Assembly (NCBI RefSeq): GCF_936981045.1
Contig: NZ_OW441264.1
Coordinates: 690,001 to 722,000, forward strand
Source of the DNA: Candidatus Saccharimonadota bacterium
GTDB taxonomy: Bacteria; Bacteroidota; Bacteroidia; Cytophagales; Amoebophilaceae
DNA length: 32,000 nt
Reading direction: 5' to 3'
Of this stretch, positions 20,605 to 28,600 are shown in pieces. The position numbers were made by a program, and so were the translations under genes. Numbering within the stretch: position 1 is the stretch's first letter; every line of letters starts with the position of its first letter. Under the pieces are notes generated by a model. The model saw nothing but the letters and a program-made list of their open reading frames with translations. It made no database searches and was not told the origin of the DNA.

Positions 20605-20842
20605 CCTGAGTTCGGGATTAGATTATTTTTTCATTTGATAATCAATATCAATGAAAATTTATAAAATTTGTTTTATAGACAGTTAAATAGGTAGTTGAAT
20701 AACAAATAATTCTGGTAATGAGTTTATTATATATATTATATTTATAAAATTAGATATAAAAACTTGTTAAATAGGTGCAAATATTAACTAAATAATTGAT
20801 ATTAAATTGTTGTAAATCAGTCAAATAAATCCCGAACTCACG
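20605..20842 (+). mobile_element. 238-bp MITE, copy 3
   Basis: Same orientation as copy 1, with 3 mismatches to it. Its right end abuts a TTAA inside a truncated IS982 transposase gene. The left flank is unrelated sequence. Confidence 0.85.
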
Positions 20843-20844
20843 TA

Positions 20845-21037
20845 TTAACAGTTGTTTTTCCATATACGGCATAAACTTTATGAGAAATTCATCAACAGCA
20901 TAATACATTTCAACTAATTTTTCTACATTCATAACTGGCTCCTTTGGATAATCTGGTTAGCATTTTTTTATCTCCAAATTTAAAACACAAAGGAGCTTTT
21001 TAAAGCTATTTTTTAACAAGCTAATCCCGAACTCAGG
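20845..21037 (-). mobile_element. IS982-family fragment: first ~30 transposase codons plus the authentic terminal IR
   Basis: 20845-20940 matches 7520-7636 (MNVEKLVEMYYAVDEFLIKFMPYMEKQLL). It continues to ...ctaatcccgaactcagg at 21037, the inverted partner of the 6718 end. Confidence 0.75.
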
Positions 21038-21499
21038 TGTATAGAGCGGTTCGATTAGTTCACTGTTGCAATAGAGAGTTTAAACCTATCTTTTCCAAGT
21101 AAGTATTGTTTATGGCCATATGTATTATTTTACTGTGAATCAGGTTACATACTCCTTTTGAACTATATGAGATTGGTTTAGCTGTGTGAGGTGAAATGCC
21201 CAGATTTAGTAATCCTTAGTATCGTCCGGAAGGTGTTCAGTTCTTTCGTATATCGATCAAACATGCTATAGATCTCCCACGGTAAGATACATATCCTTCA
21301 CCACAAAATGGTAAACATACGGTGGTGCCTATTGACGATGAAAGATGATATAAGAATCAACTTAATTGGGTTTATAGGTAAATGCTGATTTTCTACCTTA
21401 TAAGAGAACAATTTCAGCAACTCATTGCAAGGGGCATTTTTCACTTTTTTGGAGTGTAACGCTACCAGATGGCCGATAGGGCACCTTTTCCCTATTCCT

Positions 21500-22753
21500 T
21501 TAAAAACCGTTTGACTTTACTAATTTTTTTCCAGCTTCATATCCTTTAGGTGATACTTTTTTAGCAAAATTTTTCAACCTTCTCCAAAAACGCATCTTTT
21601 GCTCCATTTTCTGCATAAGATTGGCATTTGCTTTTAGTTTACGCAAACTATTCGCTCCACCGGCAGCTGCAGCAGCTACAGCACTACCAGCTACACCGGC
21701 AGCTCCAATGCTACCCATTCCAAAGAGACTATTTTTTTCGGCTCTACCACTACCCAGCCCAACACTAGCACTGCTCTTTGGGGACCCAGCTGCACCACCA
21801 CCCGGTCTAGGACTAACACTACTTTTTCTGGATCCACTTGGACCACTACCCGGCCCGCGACCACCACTACTGCTACTACTACCTAACCTATGACCACCTC
21901 CTCCAACTCCACCTCCACTACCACCAGGCCCATTGCCGGCAACACCTCCTTGCAAGCCACTGTCAGAAGGGCTTGCGCCAACATTGGTACCATAAGCCCC
22001 ATCCCCAGAACGGTTCGCAGCAATACTAGAAGTTCGACCAGAAGGGCTTGCACCAACACCGGAACTATAAACCGCACCCCCAGCACCATTAGATCCCTGA
22101 TAAATCTGATCAGGTCCTCCATCATAGGCACCAGGTGGCGCACCACTGTAAGCACCACTCATGCCATTAGGTGTCGGTCCAAAAACCTCCTGAACAGGTG
22201 GACCTTGGCCAGAAGGAACCTTTTGATTCGAGGTTGCATTGGCACCAGATGCCTTTGCATATTTGCCATCTACACCAGCAGCAGACTTCCCTTTTCCTAA
22301 AGGAACGAGCTCCTCCAATACAGATATATGCGCCTCTGCTCTAACAAGCGTACCATCTACTTGAAACATAGAATAAACGATGTCTAGAGCTACCAATCTG
22401 CCTTTAAAATCAATCTGGCCCCAGATTACACGGATGTAATTGGGAGCATTGTTCTTTTTATGGATACTGTAAGCAACATTTTGAAGTTGCTTTACTTGCT
22501 CCATCACAGCAATGGTATTGCTACCAGGTATAATGCCTGTATTATCAAACAAGAGACTAAAAGAGAGCAGCTTTGGAGGAGATCCACGGTATTTCAGCAA
22601 ACTAGAACTCGGGATTCCCTCAGGAACATGGTAGGACACTGCACTTTTAATAACCAAGTTCTCAGGATTAATAGATGTAATAAACTCTCCTGTAAAAGAG
22701 GCAAACTTATTGTCACTACATGCTTTAATAACTAGTTTACTAACATTACTCAT
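21500..22753 (-). CDS. Afp7/Pvc7-like CIS tube-domain protein with a long G/S/A/P-rich low-complexity region and a basic C-terminal tail (no LysM seen)
   Basis: The N-terminal ~150 aa (INPENL..., LKYRGSPPKLLSFSLLFDNTG, VIWGQIDFKGRLVALDIVYSMFQVDGTLVRAEAHISVLE) fit the contractile-injection-system tube N-terminal domain found in Afp7/Pvc7 homologues. Residues ~152-368 are low complexity. Residues 369-417 are Lys/Arg-rich. Confidence 0.8.
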   Translation of the reverse strand: MSNVSKLVIKACSDNKFASFTGEFITSINPENLVIKSAVSYHVPEGIPSSSLLKYRGSPPKLLSFSLLFDNTGIIPGSNTIAVMEQVKQLQNVAYSIHKKNNAPNYIRVIWGQIDFKGRLVALDIVYSMFQVDGTLVRAEAHISVLEELVPLGKGKSAAGVDGKYAKASGANATSNQKVPSGQGPPVQEVFGPTPNGMSGAYSGAPPGAYDGGPDQIYQGSNGAGGAVYSSGVGASPSGRTSSIAANRSGDGAYGTNVGASPSDSGLQGGVAGNGPGGSGGGVGGGGHRLGSSSSSGGRGPGSGPSGSRKSSVSPRPGGGAAGSPKSSASVGLGSGRAEKNSLFGMGSIGAAGVAGSAVAAAAAGGANSLRKLKANANLMQKMEQKMRFWRRLKNFAKKVSPKGYEAGKKLVKSNGF

Positions 22754-22771
22754 AACTATAGATGGATCATT

Positions 22772-22939
22772 TTACCTGGTTTCCTGATCTTTTAATAAGC
22801 TCGAAATGGCTCTTGTCAATGCCAATTGCTGCTGCGTAGTAGTATTCAATAGAAGATTTTCTGGCATAGTTTTAGTATTGTCTACTTTTTCTTTAGTTAC
22901 TTCAACCCGGATTACTAGTTCCTTAATTATAACTGCCAT
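22772..22939 (-). CDS. Unannotated 55-aa protein at the Afp6/Pvc6 position (DUF5908-like, tentative)
   Basis: The run from ATG at 22939 to TAA at 22774-22772 encodes MAVIIKELVIRVEVTKEKVDNTKTMPENLLLNTTTQQQLALTRAISSLLKDQETR. It fills an otherwise unexplained 231-bp gap in a tightly packed operon. It is below the 60-aa cutoff of the ORF track. Confidence 0.55.
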   Translation of the reverse strand: MAVIIKELVIRVEVTKEKVDNTKTMPENLLLNTTTQQQLALTRAISSLLKDQETR

Positions 22940-22984
22940 AATCAACAAAATTAATTTTGTACACTACATTAGACATTACGGATA

Positions 22985-26944: not shown

Positions 26945-27502
26945 TTACCTTTCACGTGATGAAAATGCTGATACTTTTAAACCCACTGTAGCATCTCCTA
27001 TAAATATCAGACCTACCTTATACAGCAAAGAAGGACTATAAGGCGCCTGTAAATTTTCCCAAAGCATAGACTTCTCTAATGTAGACATTTTAACCAACTC
27101 AACAGAAAAACTTTCAATCCCTATTCCTTGTAGAATAGGGGTATTAGAGGTATCAAAGTGTGATTTATTTTGAAAAAATGCCGCCACATAAGCAAGTAAT
27201 TCTAAATTTTTTAATAGGTCAGATGCTTTATAATCAACAGAAAATAAGAAATAAAGGTTAAATGCCTCCGGTGCTTTACGTACGATAAAACCATCCCCCT
27301 GTGGGACATATTGAGTAGGATTGCTGCACAATTCCACTGAAGTAATATCCACTAATCTCATCATAATTCCCTTTGAAGATTTGCTTTCTACTTGGGAATT
27401 TCCTAAAACTGCCAAGGATATAACTGGACACTTTACATTCGTTTTAGACTGAACGTATTGATTTGCCTCAGATAATATAGTACTAGTGCAATGATGTAGC
27501 AT
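26945..27502 (-). CDS. DUF4255 / Afp16-Pvc16-like tail terminator (cap) protein
   Basis: 185-aa ORF with the pattern ...ISLAVLGN...MRLVDITSVE...FNLYFLFSV...LELLAYVAAFFQNKSHF...N.P.L...LSVELVKMS.LE.S.LW..L.APY.PSLLYKV, characteristic of the Pvc16 N-terminal (DUF4255) family. Confidence 0.8.
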   Translation of the reverse strand: MLHHCTSTILSEANQYVQSKTNVKCPVISLAVLGNSQVESKSSKGIMMRLVDITSVELCSNPTQYVPQGDGFIVRKAPEAFNLYFLFSVDYKASDLLKNLELLAYVAAFFQNKSHFDTSNTPILQGIGIESFSVELVKMSTLEKSMLWENLQAPYSPSLLYKVGLIFIGDATVGLKVSAFSSRER

Positions 27503-27849
27503 TGTCAGCCGCTCTATATATTATTTTAATGATCTGTAACCTATGACCACCTGTAATGATTACAAAAGTGAAACGCAATAGGGCTTGTTACTCCTTGTTA
27601 CCCATCGGTTGAGCTAAACAAGACGCTTTATTGTCTAAATTATATTACATTTTTAGGTTACTTTTTTACTCAAAAAGATAAATGCCATCACTTTTTGTCT
27701 AAAAACCGTACAAAAACACCGCTTATGCCTCGATTTAGTAGCCAACAGACGGCATCCTTTATTACAGAAATAGACTACAAGCCAATACAAGTAGCATCAA
27801 AAACAGTCGTCGAAACACCTGGTCACATTACTCCCATCTATGTTCGGCT

Positions 27850-28092
27850 CTATCCCATAGGCTCACAAACCACCATAACCTGGTTATCAGCTATTGAGGT
27901 AAAACCACCTCTTATTGAAATGGACGATGAAATAGCCCCGACCGTATAAGTGATCTTCCCTGGTATTAAATTACTTAAAGTAGGCGCATGATTGGAAAGT
28001 ACCTGAAATGGACCAAGCGCACCCGGCAACTTCACACTACCCACCGTTCCATTAAAAAGCTTACCACTAGGCGATATGATCGATAAGTTCAT
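27850..28092 (-). CDS. atpC: F0F1 ATP synthase epsilon subunit (short form)
   Basis: The 80-aa ORF MNLSIISPSGKLFNGTVGSVKLPGALGPFQVLSNHAPTLSNL..G.I.Y......I.I.GGF matches the AtpC N-terminal beta-sandwich. No atpD lies upstream. Confidence 0.8.
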   Translation of the reverse strand: MNLSIISPSGKLFNGTVGSVKLPGALGPFQVLSNHAPTLSNLIPGKITYTVGAISSSISIRGGFTSIADNQVMVVCEPMG

Positions 28093-28142
28093 CTTTAGTG
28101 TATTTACTTATTTGGCAGAGAGCCACTTACAACCTAAACTAC

Positions 28143-28178
28143 TGATTATCTTTTCTCCTTTGATTATTTTTTCTCCTT
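28143..28178. repeat. Tandem 2 x 18-bp direct repeat upstream of atpC
   Basis: tgattatcttttctcctt followed by tgattattttttctcctt (16/18 identical), read directly. It lies 51-86 bp upstream of the atpC start on the minus strand. Confidence 0.85.
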
Positions 28179-28302
28179 CTTACTTAAGTGAAAGGTAACC
28201 AAAAGGTCTTTTAAAAGCAAATGTACTGAATAAAAATCGCACTTAACCATCTCACAAAGCAAACCGACTAGAAGGTACTCATTAGCTTTGAGTAAAATAA
28301 TA

Positions 28303-28541
28303 ACGTGAGTTCGGGATTTATTTGATTGATTTACAACAATTTAATATCAATTATTTAGTTAATATTTGCACCTATTTAACAAGTTTTTATATCTAATTTT
28401 ATAAATATAATATATATAATAAACTGATTACCAGAATTATTTGTTATTCAACTACCTATTTAACTGTCTATAAAACAAATTTTATAAATTTTCATTGATA
28501 TTGATTATCAAATGAAAAAATAATCTAATCCCGAATTCAGG
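28303..28541 (-). mobile_element. MITE, copy 4 (inverted relative to copy 3)
   Basis: It runs from cgtgagttcgggatttatttgattg... to ...aatctaatcccgaattcagg and is about 98% identical to copies 1 and 3. Confidence 0.85.
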
Positions 28542-28600
28542 TTAACTAAATAATTGATATTAAATTGTTGTAAATCAATCAAATAAATCCCGAACTCACG
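28542..28600 (+). mobile_element. Partial MITE end (59 bp), forming a long inverted repeat with the start of copy 4
   Basis: ttaactaaataattgatattaaattgttgtaaatcaatcaaataaatcccgaactcacg equals the last ~59 bp of a forward-oriented MITE starting at its internal TTAA. It is the reverse complement of about 28303-28360. Confidence 0.75.

What the first reader, a model, noticed from the sequence alone, without database searches (positions are those of the whole stretch)
20605..28600. The CIS module is incomplete and bracketed by inverted copies of the same MITE, so it looks split off by MITE/IS recombination
In characterised Afp/PVC-type loci the Afp7-like gene is followed by spike (VgrG), gp25-like, baseplate-wedge, tape-measure and AAA+ ATPase genes. 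Here the operon stops at 21500.

Downstream there is about 460 bp of non-coding, degraded sequence, then an IS982 fragment (20845-21037), then MITE copy 3 (20605-20842), then gyrA on the other strand.

On the upstream side, an orphan atpC and MITE copy 4 plus a partial MITE (28303-28600) lie in the opposite orientation to copy 3. MITE copy 3 itself has non-matching flanks: IS982 coding sequence on one side and unrelated DNA on the other. That is the signature of recombination between dispersed copies.

The 7.3-kb segment 21038-28302 is therefore a candidate inversion or translocation unit. The baseplate half of the machine should lie elsewhere, or be lost.
Basis: partly seen in the sequence, partly recalled or inferred. 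Interest (0 to 1): 0.65.

Follow-up and report, generated by a model that had tools for sequence, protein, structure and literature searches.

The report
Cardinium injection-system operon flanked by MITEs
This is the sheath-and-tube gene block of the phage-tail-like secretion system of the spider symbiont Cardinium; the system's genes have been scattered since long before the two flanking copies of a published, very abundant mini-transposon arrived, so the finding is real but ordinary.

Summary

[quoted passage not shown] The block atpC plus eight CIS genes (Pvc16-like to Afp7-like) is conserved in every Cardinium-clade locus I fetched. Where the contig continues past the Afp7-like gene, housekeeping genes follow it. 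None of these loci carries the MITE. Only Amoebophilus-type loci continue into VgrG-PAAR-gp25.

In relatives, VgrG-PAAR-gp25-Afp12-like forms a separate locus. This genome also encodes a VgrG. The scattered layout was published in 2012, and the presence of all 15 T6SSiv genes in this strain in 2023.

The repeat is MITECca01, published in 2022. It has 169 copies, about one per 6.7 kb, so a 7.5-kb gap between two copies is what chance gives.

What survives is that both outer flanks of the block are specific to this lineage. The junctions also carry MITE/ISCca4 debris that is not simple insertion: a truncated IS, a 5'-truncated pdxY pseudogene and missing target-site duplications. Local IS/MITE-associated rearrangement of the flanks is therefore likely. 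Inversion between this MITE pair has no support.

Already known; low interest.

The parts
17779..20250 (+). gyrA. It is a syntenic island: similarity to relatives' DNA covers only about 17700-20245.
   Evidence: Pfam DNA_topoisoIV and DNA_gyraseA_C. blastn against L019-L022. In relatives gyrA sits in the order Opp-AsnS-gyrA.
20604..20843 (+). MITECca01 copy ('MITE copy 3'), 240 bp. It has no target-site duplication of its own.
   Evidence: Identified from the description in PMC9769881.
20844..21038 (-). 5' fragment of an ISCca4 (IS982-family) element: left IR, 5' UTR and the first ~29-32 transposase codons.
   Evidence: 98% identical to 7525-7639. tblastn to IS982 transposases of L004/L005. 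81% identical to a region annotated as an 'IS982-like element ISCca4 family transposase' on a cBtQ1 plasmid. The composite 20604-21038 is flanked by GTATA on both sides.
21039..21499 (.). 461 bp of non-coding DNA of unknown origin, between the Afp7-like stop codon and the IS debris.
   Evidence: No ORF longer than 48 aa. No similarity to relatives' flanks, HtrA or plasmids.
21500..22753 (-). Afp7-like gene, the last gene of the block. It has an N-terminal CIS_tube domain and a Gly/Ser-rich variable C-terminus (homologue of CAHE_0463 / Aasi_1079).
   Evidence: PF19266, E 1.5e-31. Homologues are all Cardinium or Amoebophilaceae. Table S5 of PMC3486910.
22772..22939 (-). Small 55-aa gene at the position of the DUF5908-like gene (CAHE_0462 position).
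   Evidence: ORF found. Genes of 56-57 aa sit at the same position in L016, L017, L018 and L027; those in L016 and L018 have a weak PF19265 hit.
22985..23434 (-). Tube protein, gp19 family.
   Evidence: PF06841, E 7e-14. TIGR02241.
23468..23923 (-). Conserved 151-aa CIS gene (CAHE_0460 position). No family hit.
   Evidence: Conserved in all loci. No Pfam or NCBIfam hit.
23987..24451 (-). Conserved 154-aa CIS gene (CAHE_0459 position). No family hit.
24546..26033 (-). Contractile sheath protein, 495 aa.
   Evidence: Phage_sheath_1C and Phage_sheath_1. 91-96% identical across the Cardinium-clade loci (88% on the 108-residue piece in L015) and 73-78% to the Amoebophilus-type and Cytophagales loci.
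26079..26939 (-). Conserved 286-aa CIS gene (CAHE_0457 / Aasi_1073 position).
26945..27502 (-). Pvc16_N / Afp16-like gene, the first gene of the CIS operon.
   Evidence: PF14065, E 1.3e-19.
27637..27674 (-). Conserved promoter-like motif upstream of the Pvc16-like gene: TTTG...TAATATAATTT. It is intact.
   Evidence: Alignment of 10 upstream regions; coordinates. A promoter function is inferred, not shown.
27850..28092 (-). atpC (F1 epsilon subunit, N-terminal domain only, 80 aa). It is a conserved neighbour of the CIS operon throughout the Cardinium clade.
   Evidence: PF02823, E 4e-18. NCBIfam epsilon models match below their cut-offs. Present directly upstream of Pvc16 in L001-L007, L013-L015, L017, L018 and L027.
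28190..28223 (-). Conserved promoter-like motif upstream of atpC: CATTTGCTTTTAAAAGACCTTTTGGTTACCTTTC. It is intact and lies 80 bp from the MITE.
   Evidence: A promoter function is inferred.
28303..28542 (-). MITECca01 copy ('MITE copy 4'). No target-site duplication.
28543..28601 (+). Partial MITECca01: the last 59 nt (right end). It shares a private A/G variant with copy 4's right end. Together with copy 4 it forms perfect 65-nt inverted arms that include 5 nt of flanking DNA.
   Evidence: repeats I5 and D4.
28602..29389 (+). pdxY (pyridoxal kinase) pseudogene. The first ~22-35 codons are missing at the MITE junction, and there is an in-frame stop at 29084.
   Evidence: TIGR00687 profile positions 36-184 of 288. 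Frame translation.
4488..4727 (+). MITECca01 copy 1. It is the only copy with an intact 7-bp target-site duplication (TAAATTA), so it is a simple insertion.
6717..7639 (-). ISCca4 (IS982-family) copy with a split transposase. Its 5' end is replaced by MITECca01 copy 2 (7640-7879, - strand).
   Evidence: DDE_Tnp_1_3 domain.

Best explanation
Positions 21500-28092 hold the sheath/tube module of the Cardinium T6SS-iv, the Amoebophilus-type, Afp-like contractile injection system. The module has eight genes, from Pvc16-like to Afp7-like, plus the adjacent atpC.

In the Cardinium clade the system is encoded at several separate loci as an ancestral condition. The break between Afp7-like and VgrG happened once, before the sequenced Cardinium-clade lineages diverged. 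The spike/baseplate genes VgrG-PAAR-gp25-Afp12-like form their own locus elsewhere. The parts are presumably made from separate transcripts and assemble in trans; that step is inferred.

The two flanking repeats are copies of MITECca01, a recent and very abundant element (169 copies) derived from ISCca4 and largely specific to this strain. They accumulated at the edges of this selectively constrained block at the genome's background density.

The outer flanks of the block (gyrA on one side, pdxY pseudogene-YebC-RuvB on the other) are specific to this lineage. They most likely arose by the IS/MITE-associated deletions and rearrangements typical of this genome, which is 30% transposable elements. 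That step is inferred from the junction anatomy, not shown.
For: [quoted passage not shown]
- Conserved block: atpC-Pvc16-286aa-sheath-154aa-151aa-tube-(55aa)-Afp7 occurs in L001-L007, L012-L018 and L027, where the contig reaches that far. Where the contig continues, housekeeping genes follow Afp7: two HtrA-like genes then TatD or AsnC; TilS/ABC; Ffh then RseP-Lon; MBL/YbeY.
- Contiguous layout only outside the clade: only the Amoebophilus-type loci L009 and L010 continue Afp7 into VgrG, and in L010 on into PAAR, gp25 and an 836-aa gene.
- Separate spike locus: VgrG-PAAR-gp25-825aa sits between housekeeping genes in Cardinium sp. TP (L024/L025, the same genome as L002). VgrG sits next to TrxB/EamA in the MAG that also gave L013 (L023).
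- MITE distribution: no MITE match in the 25 related chromosomal loci. Copies in the window are 95-99% identical.
- Integrity: all eight CIS ORFs have the same lengths as in relatives, and two conserved upstream motifs are intact.
- Literature: 16 AFP-like genes in five regions, with CAHE_0456-0463 ending at the Afp7-like gene and VgrG at CAHE_0763 (PMC3486910). All 15 T6SSiv homologues are present in cOegib (PMC9997750). MITECca01 is 240 bp, has 169 copies, is derived from ISCca4, and lies mostly in intergenic regions or disrupts other mobile elements (PMC9769881).
- Density: background density explains the bracketing.
Against: - I could not read this genome outside the window, because it is not held in the searchable assemblies. 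The position and flanks of its VgrG locus are therefore unknown.
- Both flanks of the block differ from the consensus of the five to seven group-A relatives. The closest Afp7 relative (L016, 88% identity) still has an HtrA-like sequence downstream. Something did happen at these borders recently, and MITE/IS termini sit exactly at the junctions at 28601/28602 and 20843/20844.
- Trans-assembly from separate loci is inferred. It rests on the microfilament-like arrays seen in Cardinium cells (literature), not on anything tested here.
Confidence: 0.85

Rival explanations
1. Recombination between dispersed MITE/IS982 copies in this genome cut the CIS operon after Afp7-like and moved the baseplate half away.
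For: - Inverted MITE copies bracket the block.
- Copy 3 has non-matching flanks and abuts a truncated IS982.
- VgrG and the other baseplate genes are absent from the window.
Against: - The same truncated layout occurs in every Cardinium-clade locus examined, none of which has the MITE.
- It was published for strain cEper1 in 2012.
- The split is shared with lineages whose Afp7 is ~48-50% identical, while the MITE copies are 95-99% identical to each other.
- Similarity to relatives ends within ~15 nt of the Afp7 stop, 460 bp away from the IS/MITE debris.
Confidence: 0.02
2. The split is ancient, but in the cOegib lineage the intact 7.5-kb atpC+CIS block was inverted or translocated as a unit. 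This would have happened by homologous recombination between MITECca01/ISCca4 copies, or by MITE-bounded composite transposition.
For: - Both ancestral flanks, PrmC-x-Ppx-x on one side and HtrA-HtrA-TatD on the other (L001, L002, L017, L018, L027, L016), are gone. No remnant of them is detectable in the window.
- A 5'-truncated pdxY abuts a MITE terminus exactly.
- Three of the four full MITE copies lack target-site duplications.
Against: - The flank-swap test for recombination between copies 3 and 4 is negative, as it is for 2x3. Copy 1 has an intact duplication, which excludes 1x4.
- There is no duplication at the outer ends, as a composite transposon would leave.
- The composite of copy 3 plus the IS fragment is flanked by a 5-bp direct repeat, GTATA. 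That fits one old ISCca4 insertion, later hit by a MITE and internally deleted, with no large rearrangement at that point. The 5-bp match could be chance, roughly 1% after multiple looks (my estimate, not computed).
- gyrA is itself a separate island, so many independent events scrambled this region.
- YbeY and RseP-Lon lie downstream of the CIS block both here and in the deep MAGs L013 and L012. That hints the block never left its ancestral neighbourhood.
Confidence: 0.12

Closest known systems
T6SS-iv / Afp-like contractile injection system of Amoebophilus asiaticus (Aasi_1072-1083; Boeck et al. 2017, as cited in PMC9997750) and its scattered Cardinium hertigii cEper1 version (CAHE_0456-0463 plus CAHE_0760-0763 and others; Penz et al. 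2012, PMC3486910)
   Same: The gene order is the same: Pvc16-like, 286 aa, sheath, 154 aa, 151 aa, gp19 tube, small gene, Afp7-like. The sheath is 76% identical to the Amoebophilus sp. 36-38 MAG locus (L010) and 91-96% to Cardinium-clade loci. As in cEper1, the block stops after the Afp7-like gene and the spike/baseplate genes lie elsewhere.
   Different: Nothing in the CIS genes themselves differs. In Amoebophilus the Afp7-like gene runs straight into VgrG-PAAR-gp25-Afp12-like, and there is no atpC upstream. In this strain the genes outside the block are different from those in other group-A Cardinium.
MITECca01 and its parent ISCca4 (IS982 family) of Cardinium cOegibbosus (Halter et al. 2022, PMC9769881)
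   Same: The element is 240 bp and AT-rich, with no ORF. Its terminal repeats, ACCTGAGTTCGGGATTAG / ACGTGAGTTCGGGATTT, match the ISCca4 IRs. It is multi-copy, lies in intergenic DNA and disrupts other mobile elements. This is the same genome in which the element was described.
   Different: Nothing differs: these are copies of the published element. One small addition is a 72%-identical degenerate relative on plasmid p_B of the mite Cardinium isolate DF (CP101108.1), whereas the paper reported no copies in other strains.
Serratia Afp / Photorhabdus PVC extracellular CIS operons
   Same: Homologous sheath, tube, Afp7-like and Afp16/Pvc16-like genes.
   Different: Afp and PVC are single contiguous operons that run on through VgrG, baseplate, tape measure, AAA+ ATPase and toxins (background knowledge). 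Here Pvc16-like comes first, the set is split over several loci, and the system is thought to be an intracellular T6SS-like array rather than a released particle (literature).

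Membership tests
Amoebophilus/Cardinium-type T6SS-iv (Afp-like CIS), sheath-tube module | A contractile sheath protein and gp19-family tube protein(s). 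| tested here: met
   Phage_sheath_1C and Phage_sheath_1; Phage_T4_gp19. TIGR02241.
Amoebophilus/Cardinium-type T6SS-iv (Afp-like CIS), sheath-tube module | Gene order Afp16-like, x, sheath, x, x, tube, x, Afp7-like, as in Aasi_1072-1079 / CAHE_0456-0463. | tested here: met
   Colinear with L001-L018 and with the Amoebophilus locus L010. Table S5 of PMC3486910.
Amoebophilus/Cardinium-type T6SS-iv (Afp-like CIS), sheath-tube module | Spike and baseplate genes (VgrG, PAAR, gp25, Afp11/12-like) present in the same genome. | tested here: inconclusive
   A VgrG (P0072) from a contig of the same length and named for this organism was found. The other genes rest only on the published statement of 15 out of 15 homologues. 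The locus could not be fetched.
Amoebophilus/Cardinium-type T6SS-iv (Afp-like CIS), sheath-tube module | Assembly into contractile arrays and effector delivery. | not testable with these tools
   Known only from electron microscopy of other Cardinium strains and of Amoebophilus in the literature.
MITECca01 (IS982/ISCca4-derived MITE) | About 240 bp, no transposase ORF, terminal inverted repeats like those of ISCca4. | tested here: met
   Four 240-bp copies. The TIRs share 16-18 nt with the ISCca4 IRs at 6717 and 21038.
MITECca01 (IS982/ISCca4-derived MITE) | Target-site duplication flanking a copy, as evidence of transposition. | tested here: met
   Copy 1 has a perfect 7-bp TAAATTA duplication. 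Copies 2, 3 and 4 have none.
MITECca01 (IS982/ISCca4-derived MITE) | Restricted to cOegib. | tested here: inconclusive
   Absent from 25 related chromosomal loci. A 72%-identical degenerate relative exists on the cDfar/DF plasmid CP101108.1.
Composite transposon bounded by two MITE/IS copies | Direct target-site duplication outside the two bounding elements. | tested here: not met
   The outer flanks are CCGTATA on one side and TAACTAA or TATTACA on the other.
Segment inverted by recombination between inverted repeats | Reciprocally swapped target-site duplications at the two repeats. | tested here: not met
   No match for 3x4 or 2x3. Copy 1 keeps its own duplication. The test is weak if the copies never had clean duplications.
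Segment inverted by recombination between inverted repeats | Both orientations detectable in reads. | not testable with these tools
   No read data are available.

The most novel reading that the evidence does not exclude
In the cOegib lineage, MITECca01/ISCca4 copies move or flip whole operon-sized blocks that are under selection. Under this reading the 7.5-kb atpC+sheath/tube block bounded by inverted MITEs is such a unit, possibly still invertible. A weaker variant is that the 80-aa AtpC-like protein, which keeps its place and its own conserved promoter-like motif next to the sheath operon across the whole Cardinium clade, has a role linked to the injection system.
Probability: 0.08. Interest if true: 0.4.

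Novelty: already known. Interest (0 to 1): 0.1.

Why it matters
It matters little beyond correct bookkeeping. The window shows one conserved block of a scattered secretion-system gene set in a symbiont genome that is 30% transposable elements. Selection keeps the block intact, with its ORFs and upstream motifs, while mobile-element debris piles up at its edges and the neighbouring genes are reshuffled. This illustrates published conclusions and is not a new phenomenon.

The data show that the dismantling of the operon is ancient and the machine's genes are all retained.

Tried and rejected
- Fetching this genome's own VgrG locus and the window's own locus failed. The proteins are not on record in the assembly index. 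The same was true of the Nabis limbatus VgrG, and one look-up failed technically.
- I looked for remnants of the ancestral neighbours (HtrA, TatD, Metallophos, MGMT, Ppx and others) anywhere in the window by tblastn at E <= 10. None were found.
- I tried to identify the 461-bp spacer 21039-21499 and the 353-bp gyrA-MITE spacer by blastn and tblastx against all loci and by blastn against plasmids. Nothing convincing came up. The only hit was a weak 75-155-nt repeat-like match of 20389-20537 to L002 and L003.
- I joined the two spacers after removing the MITE+IS composite and one GTATA copy, to look for a gene disrupted by the insertion. No ORF spans the junction.
- Rfam (gathering threshold) and tRNA scans of the window gave no hits.
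- The sigma-70 promoter and terminator scan gave no more sites than shuffled sequence.
- I considered a model in which deletion between the ISCca4 IRL and a MITE TIR explains the ISCca4+copy 2 composite. There is no supporting duplication.
- I considered that copy 4 inserted into a fifth MITE whose left part was then deleted. The flanks are not a direct repeat.

Full report
**What is there**

The window is AT-rich (about 37% GC) and full of mobile elements:
- IS256-family transposase genes at 5812-6717 and 16337-17445;
- an IS982-family copy at 6717-7639;
- an IS6 fragment near 12505-12729;
- a group II intron reverse transcriptase at 10675-12054.

On the minus strand between 27502 and 21500 lies an operon of eight contractile-injection-system genes:
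- Pvc16_N (26945-27502);
- a 286-aa gene;
- the sheath (24546-26033);
- genes of 154 aa and 151 aa;
- a gp19-family tube gene (22985-23434);
- a 55-aa gene (22772-22939);
- an Afp7-like gene with a CIS_tube domain (21500-22753).

Upstream is an 80-aa atpC (27850-28092). Downstream, convergent on the other strand, is gyrA (17779-20250). VgrG, PAAR, gp25 and Afp12-like genes are absent from the whole 32 kb.

**The repeats**

Four 240-bp copies, 20% GC, lie at 4488-4727 (+), 7640-7879 (-), 20604-20843 (+) and 28303-28542 (-). A 59-nt right-end fragment lies at 28543-28601 (+). The copies are 95.0-98.8% identical to each other. Their terminal repeats, ACCTGAGTTCGGGATTAG and ACGTGAGTTCGGGATTT, are those of the IS982-family element (IR at 6717 and at 21038).

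Positions 20844-21038 are the 5' end of such an IS: the left IR, the UTR and about 30 codons.

**Identity of the organism and the elements**

The Afp7-like protein has homologues only in Cardinium and Amoebophilaceae, and the window's own proteins map to a contig of 1,137,202 bp. [quoted passage not shown] The window therefore comes from Cardinium sp. cOegibbosus-W744x776.

For this genome the repeat has been published as MITECca01. It is 240 bp, has 169 copies and makes up 3.5% of the chromosome. [quoted passage not shown]

At one copy per 6.7 kb, 4.8 copies are expected in 32 kb. A 7,460-bp gap between neighbouring copies has P = 0.33. The bracketing, with even odds of inverted orientation, is therefore what chance gives.

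**Test of the causal claim**

I fetched 15 loci around sheath homologues from species-representative genomes and further loci through homologues of Afp7, gyrA and VgrG.

The block atpC-Pvc16-286-sheath-154-151-tube-(small)-Afp7 is colinear in every Cardinium-clade locus that reaches that far:
- group-A strains from Nabis, Tyrophagus (TP), Bemisia, Encarsia and Sogatella;
- Tipula and cBcalN2 strains;
- three unnamed read-set (Logan) assemblies;
- three deep Amoebophilaceae MAGs.

Where the contig continues, the block stops after Afp7 and housekeeping genes follow:
- two HtrA-like genes, then TatD or AsnC;
- TilS and an ABC transporter;
- Ffh, then RseP-Lon;
- a metallo-beta-lactamase and YbeY.

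Only the Amoebophilus-type loci L009 and L010 run from Afp7 into VgrG. L010 continues into PAAR, gp25 and an 836-aa gene.

In Cardinium sp. TP, VgrG-PAAR-gp25-825aa is a separate four-gene locus between a tRNA synthetase gene and a transporter gene. There is no IS nearby. In the MAG that gave L013, VgrG is on another contig behind TrxB and EamA.

None of the 25 related chromosomal loci contains the MITE.

It is also in print. Penz et al. 2012 list 16 AFP-like genes 'in five different genome regions' of cEper1, with CAHE_0456-0463 ending at the Afp7-like gene and VgrG at CAHE_0763. Halter et al. 2023 report homologues of all 15 T6SSiv genes in cOegib.

The split is shared by lineages whose Afp7 is only about 48-50% identical to the window's. 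It is therefore far older than MITE copies that are 95-99% identical to each other.

**The 'orphan' atpC**

atpC is not a leftover. It sits directly upstream of Pvc16 in all Cardinium-clade loci that reach that far, but not in Amoebophilus. A conserved motif lies about 100 bp upstream of its start codon (28190-28223). A second conserved motif lies upstream of Pvc16 (27637-27674). Both resemble Bacteroidetes-type promoters; that resemblance rests on my own knowledge and is an inference.

MITE copy 4 begins 80 bp beyond the atpC motif. The block, with its ORF lengths and upstream motifs, is intact.

The genes outside the block are unique to this genome.
- Group-A relatives share PrmC-x-Ppx-x upstream and HtrA-HtrA-TatD downstream (L001, L002, L017, L018, L027). 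The closest Afp7 relative (L016, 88% identity) still has an HtrA-like sequence 38 nt after the stop.
- No remnant of those genes is detectable in the window.
- gyrA is itself an island, cut off from its usual Opp-AsnS neighbours.

The junctions are not simple insertions.
- Copy 3 abuts a truncated ISCca4.
- The copy 4/partial cluster abuts a pdxY pseudogene that lacks its first ~22-35 codons, and the missing part is not on the other side.
- Only copy 1 has a target-site duplication (TAAATTA, 7 bp).

Deletion or recombination with end points at MITE/IS termini is therefore likely at these borders, as everywhere in this genome.

There is no positive evidence that copies 3 and 4 recombined with each other.
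- The flank-swap test is negative, and there is no outer duplication of the kind a composite transposon would leave.
- The composite 20604-21038 is flanked by GTATA on both sides. That fits a single old ISCca4 insertion that was later hit by a MITE and shortened by deletion between the IS right IR and the near-identical MITE left TIR. This is suggestive only: a 5-bp match is about a 1% event after several looks (my estimate, not computed), and copy 1's duplication is 7 bp.
- Similarity to relatives ends about 15 nt after the Afp7 stop, 460 bp from the IS debris. The true downstream breakpoint need not be at the MITE at all.

**How it works**

This part is inferred from homology and the literature. 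The module supplies the sheath, tube, tube-initiator-like and Pvc16-like parts of the intracellular T6SS-iv arrays for which Cardinium is named. The spike and baseplate come from other loci, and the parts assemble in trans. The MITEs play no part in that function. They are passengers at the block's edges.

**Verdict**

The causal interpretation is refuted, although the prediction that the rest of the machine lies elsewhere is correct. Every element is already published for this very genome. Interest is low.

Noticed in passing
L026 (CP101108.1, plasmid p_B of Cardinium isolate DF from Dermatophagoides farinae), locus 3001-3219 = record 20836-21054: A degenerate sequence is 72% identical to MITECca01 over 214 nt (E 8e-23). 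Its terminal repeats are eroded and nothing is annotated there. The 2022 paper reported no MITECca01 in any other Cardinium strain. The family, or its precursor, may therefore predate the cOegib/cDfar split, or have travelled on a plasmid.
   Followed up: partly
window 28298-28362 and 28542-28606: Two perfect 65-nt inverted arms are formed by the right end of MITE copy 4 and the 59-nt partial copy. They include 5 nt of flanking DNA (TAATA/TATTA) and a private A-for-G variant. This looks like a local inverted duplication of one MITE end, or gene conversion, rather than a nested insertion. The mechanism is unexplained.
   Followed up: partly
window 27850-28092, and the same position in L001-L007, L013-L015, L017, L018 and L027: An 80-aa ATP synthase epsilon gene (N-terminal domain only) lies away from any atpD and immediately upstream of the T6SS-iv sheath operon in every Cardinium-clade genome examined. 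It has its own conserved upstream motif. It is absent from that position in Amoebophilus. I did not test whether it is the only atpC in these genomes.
   Followed up: partly
window 406-4282 (RseP, Lon) and 15645-16163 (YbeY), compared with L012 8312-11161 and L013 7702-8148: Two deep Amoebophilaceae MAGs have RseP-Lon or YbeY a few kb downstream of the Afp7-like gene. The window has the same genes on the same side, 5 and 17-21 kb away. My rough estimate of the chance expectation is about 0.25 events against 2 seen, P about 0.03. This may be a trace of ancestral regional linkage, which would argue against long-range translocation of the block.
   Followed up: partly
window 6717-7879: An ISCca4 copy has a split transposase (ORFs 7364-7612 and 6731-7324). 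Its last 78 nt, including the left IR, are replaced by MITE copy 2, whose outer terminal repeat could stand in for the lost IR. No target-site duplication flanks the composite.
   Followed up: partly
window 5277-5511 and 10332-10566: A 235-nt direct repeat is 98% identical between the two positions. Its translation matches the C-terminal 34 aa of an ORF in L006 whose N-terminus resembles the window's IS6-type transposase fragment, and its DNA matches sequence next to an IS6-type (DDE_Tnp_IS240) gene in L021. These are probably terminal fragments of ISCca2, the most abundant IS of this genome.
   Followed up: no
window 20389-20537: A short segment between gyrA and MITE copy 3 matches, at 71-76% identity, sequences in Cardinium sp. 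TP (L002 14897-14970, just after its Afp7 gene, and L002 19956-20107) and in cBcalN2 (L003 11484-11591). It may be a small dispersed intergenic repeat of Cardinium.
   Followed up: no
window 21964-22086 (inside the Afp7-like gene): A 48-nt direct repeat (81% identical) lies in the Gly/Ser-rich C-terminal half of the gene. This half is the part that varies most in length and sequence between strains: some homologues align over only 52-74% of the query.
   Followed up: no
window 10675-12054: A group II intron reverse transcriptase/maturase ORF is present, but no Rfam group II intron RNA hit reached the gathering threshold anywhere in the window.
   Followed up: no
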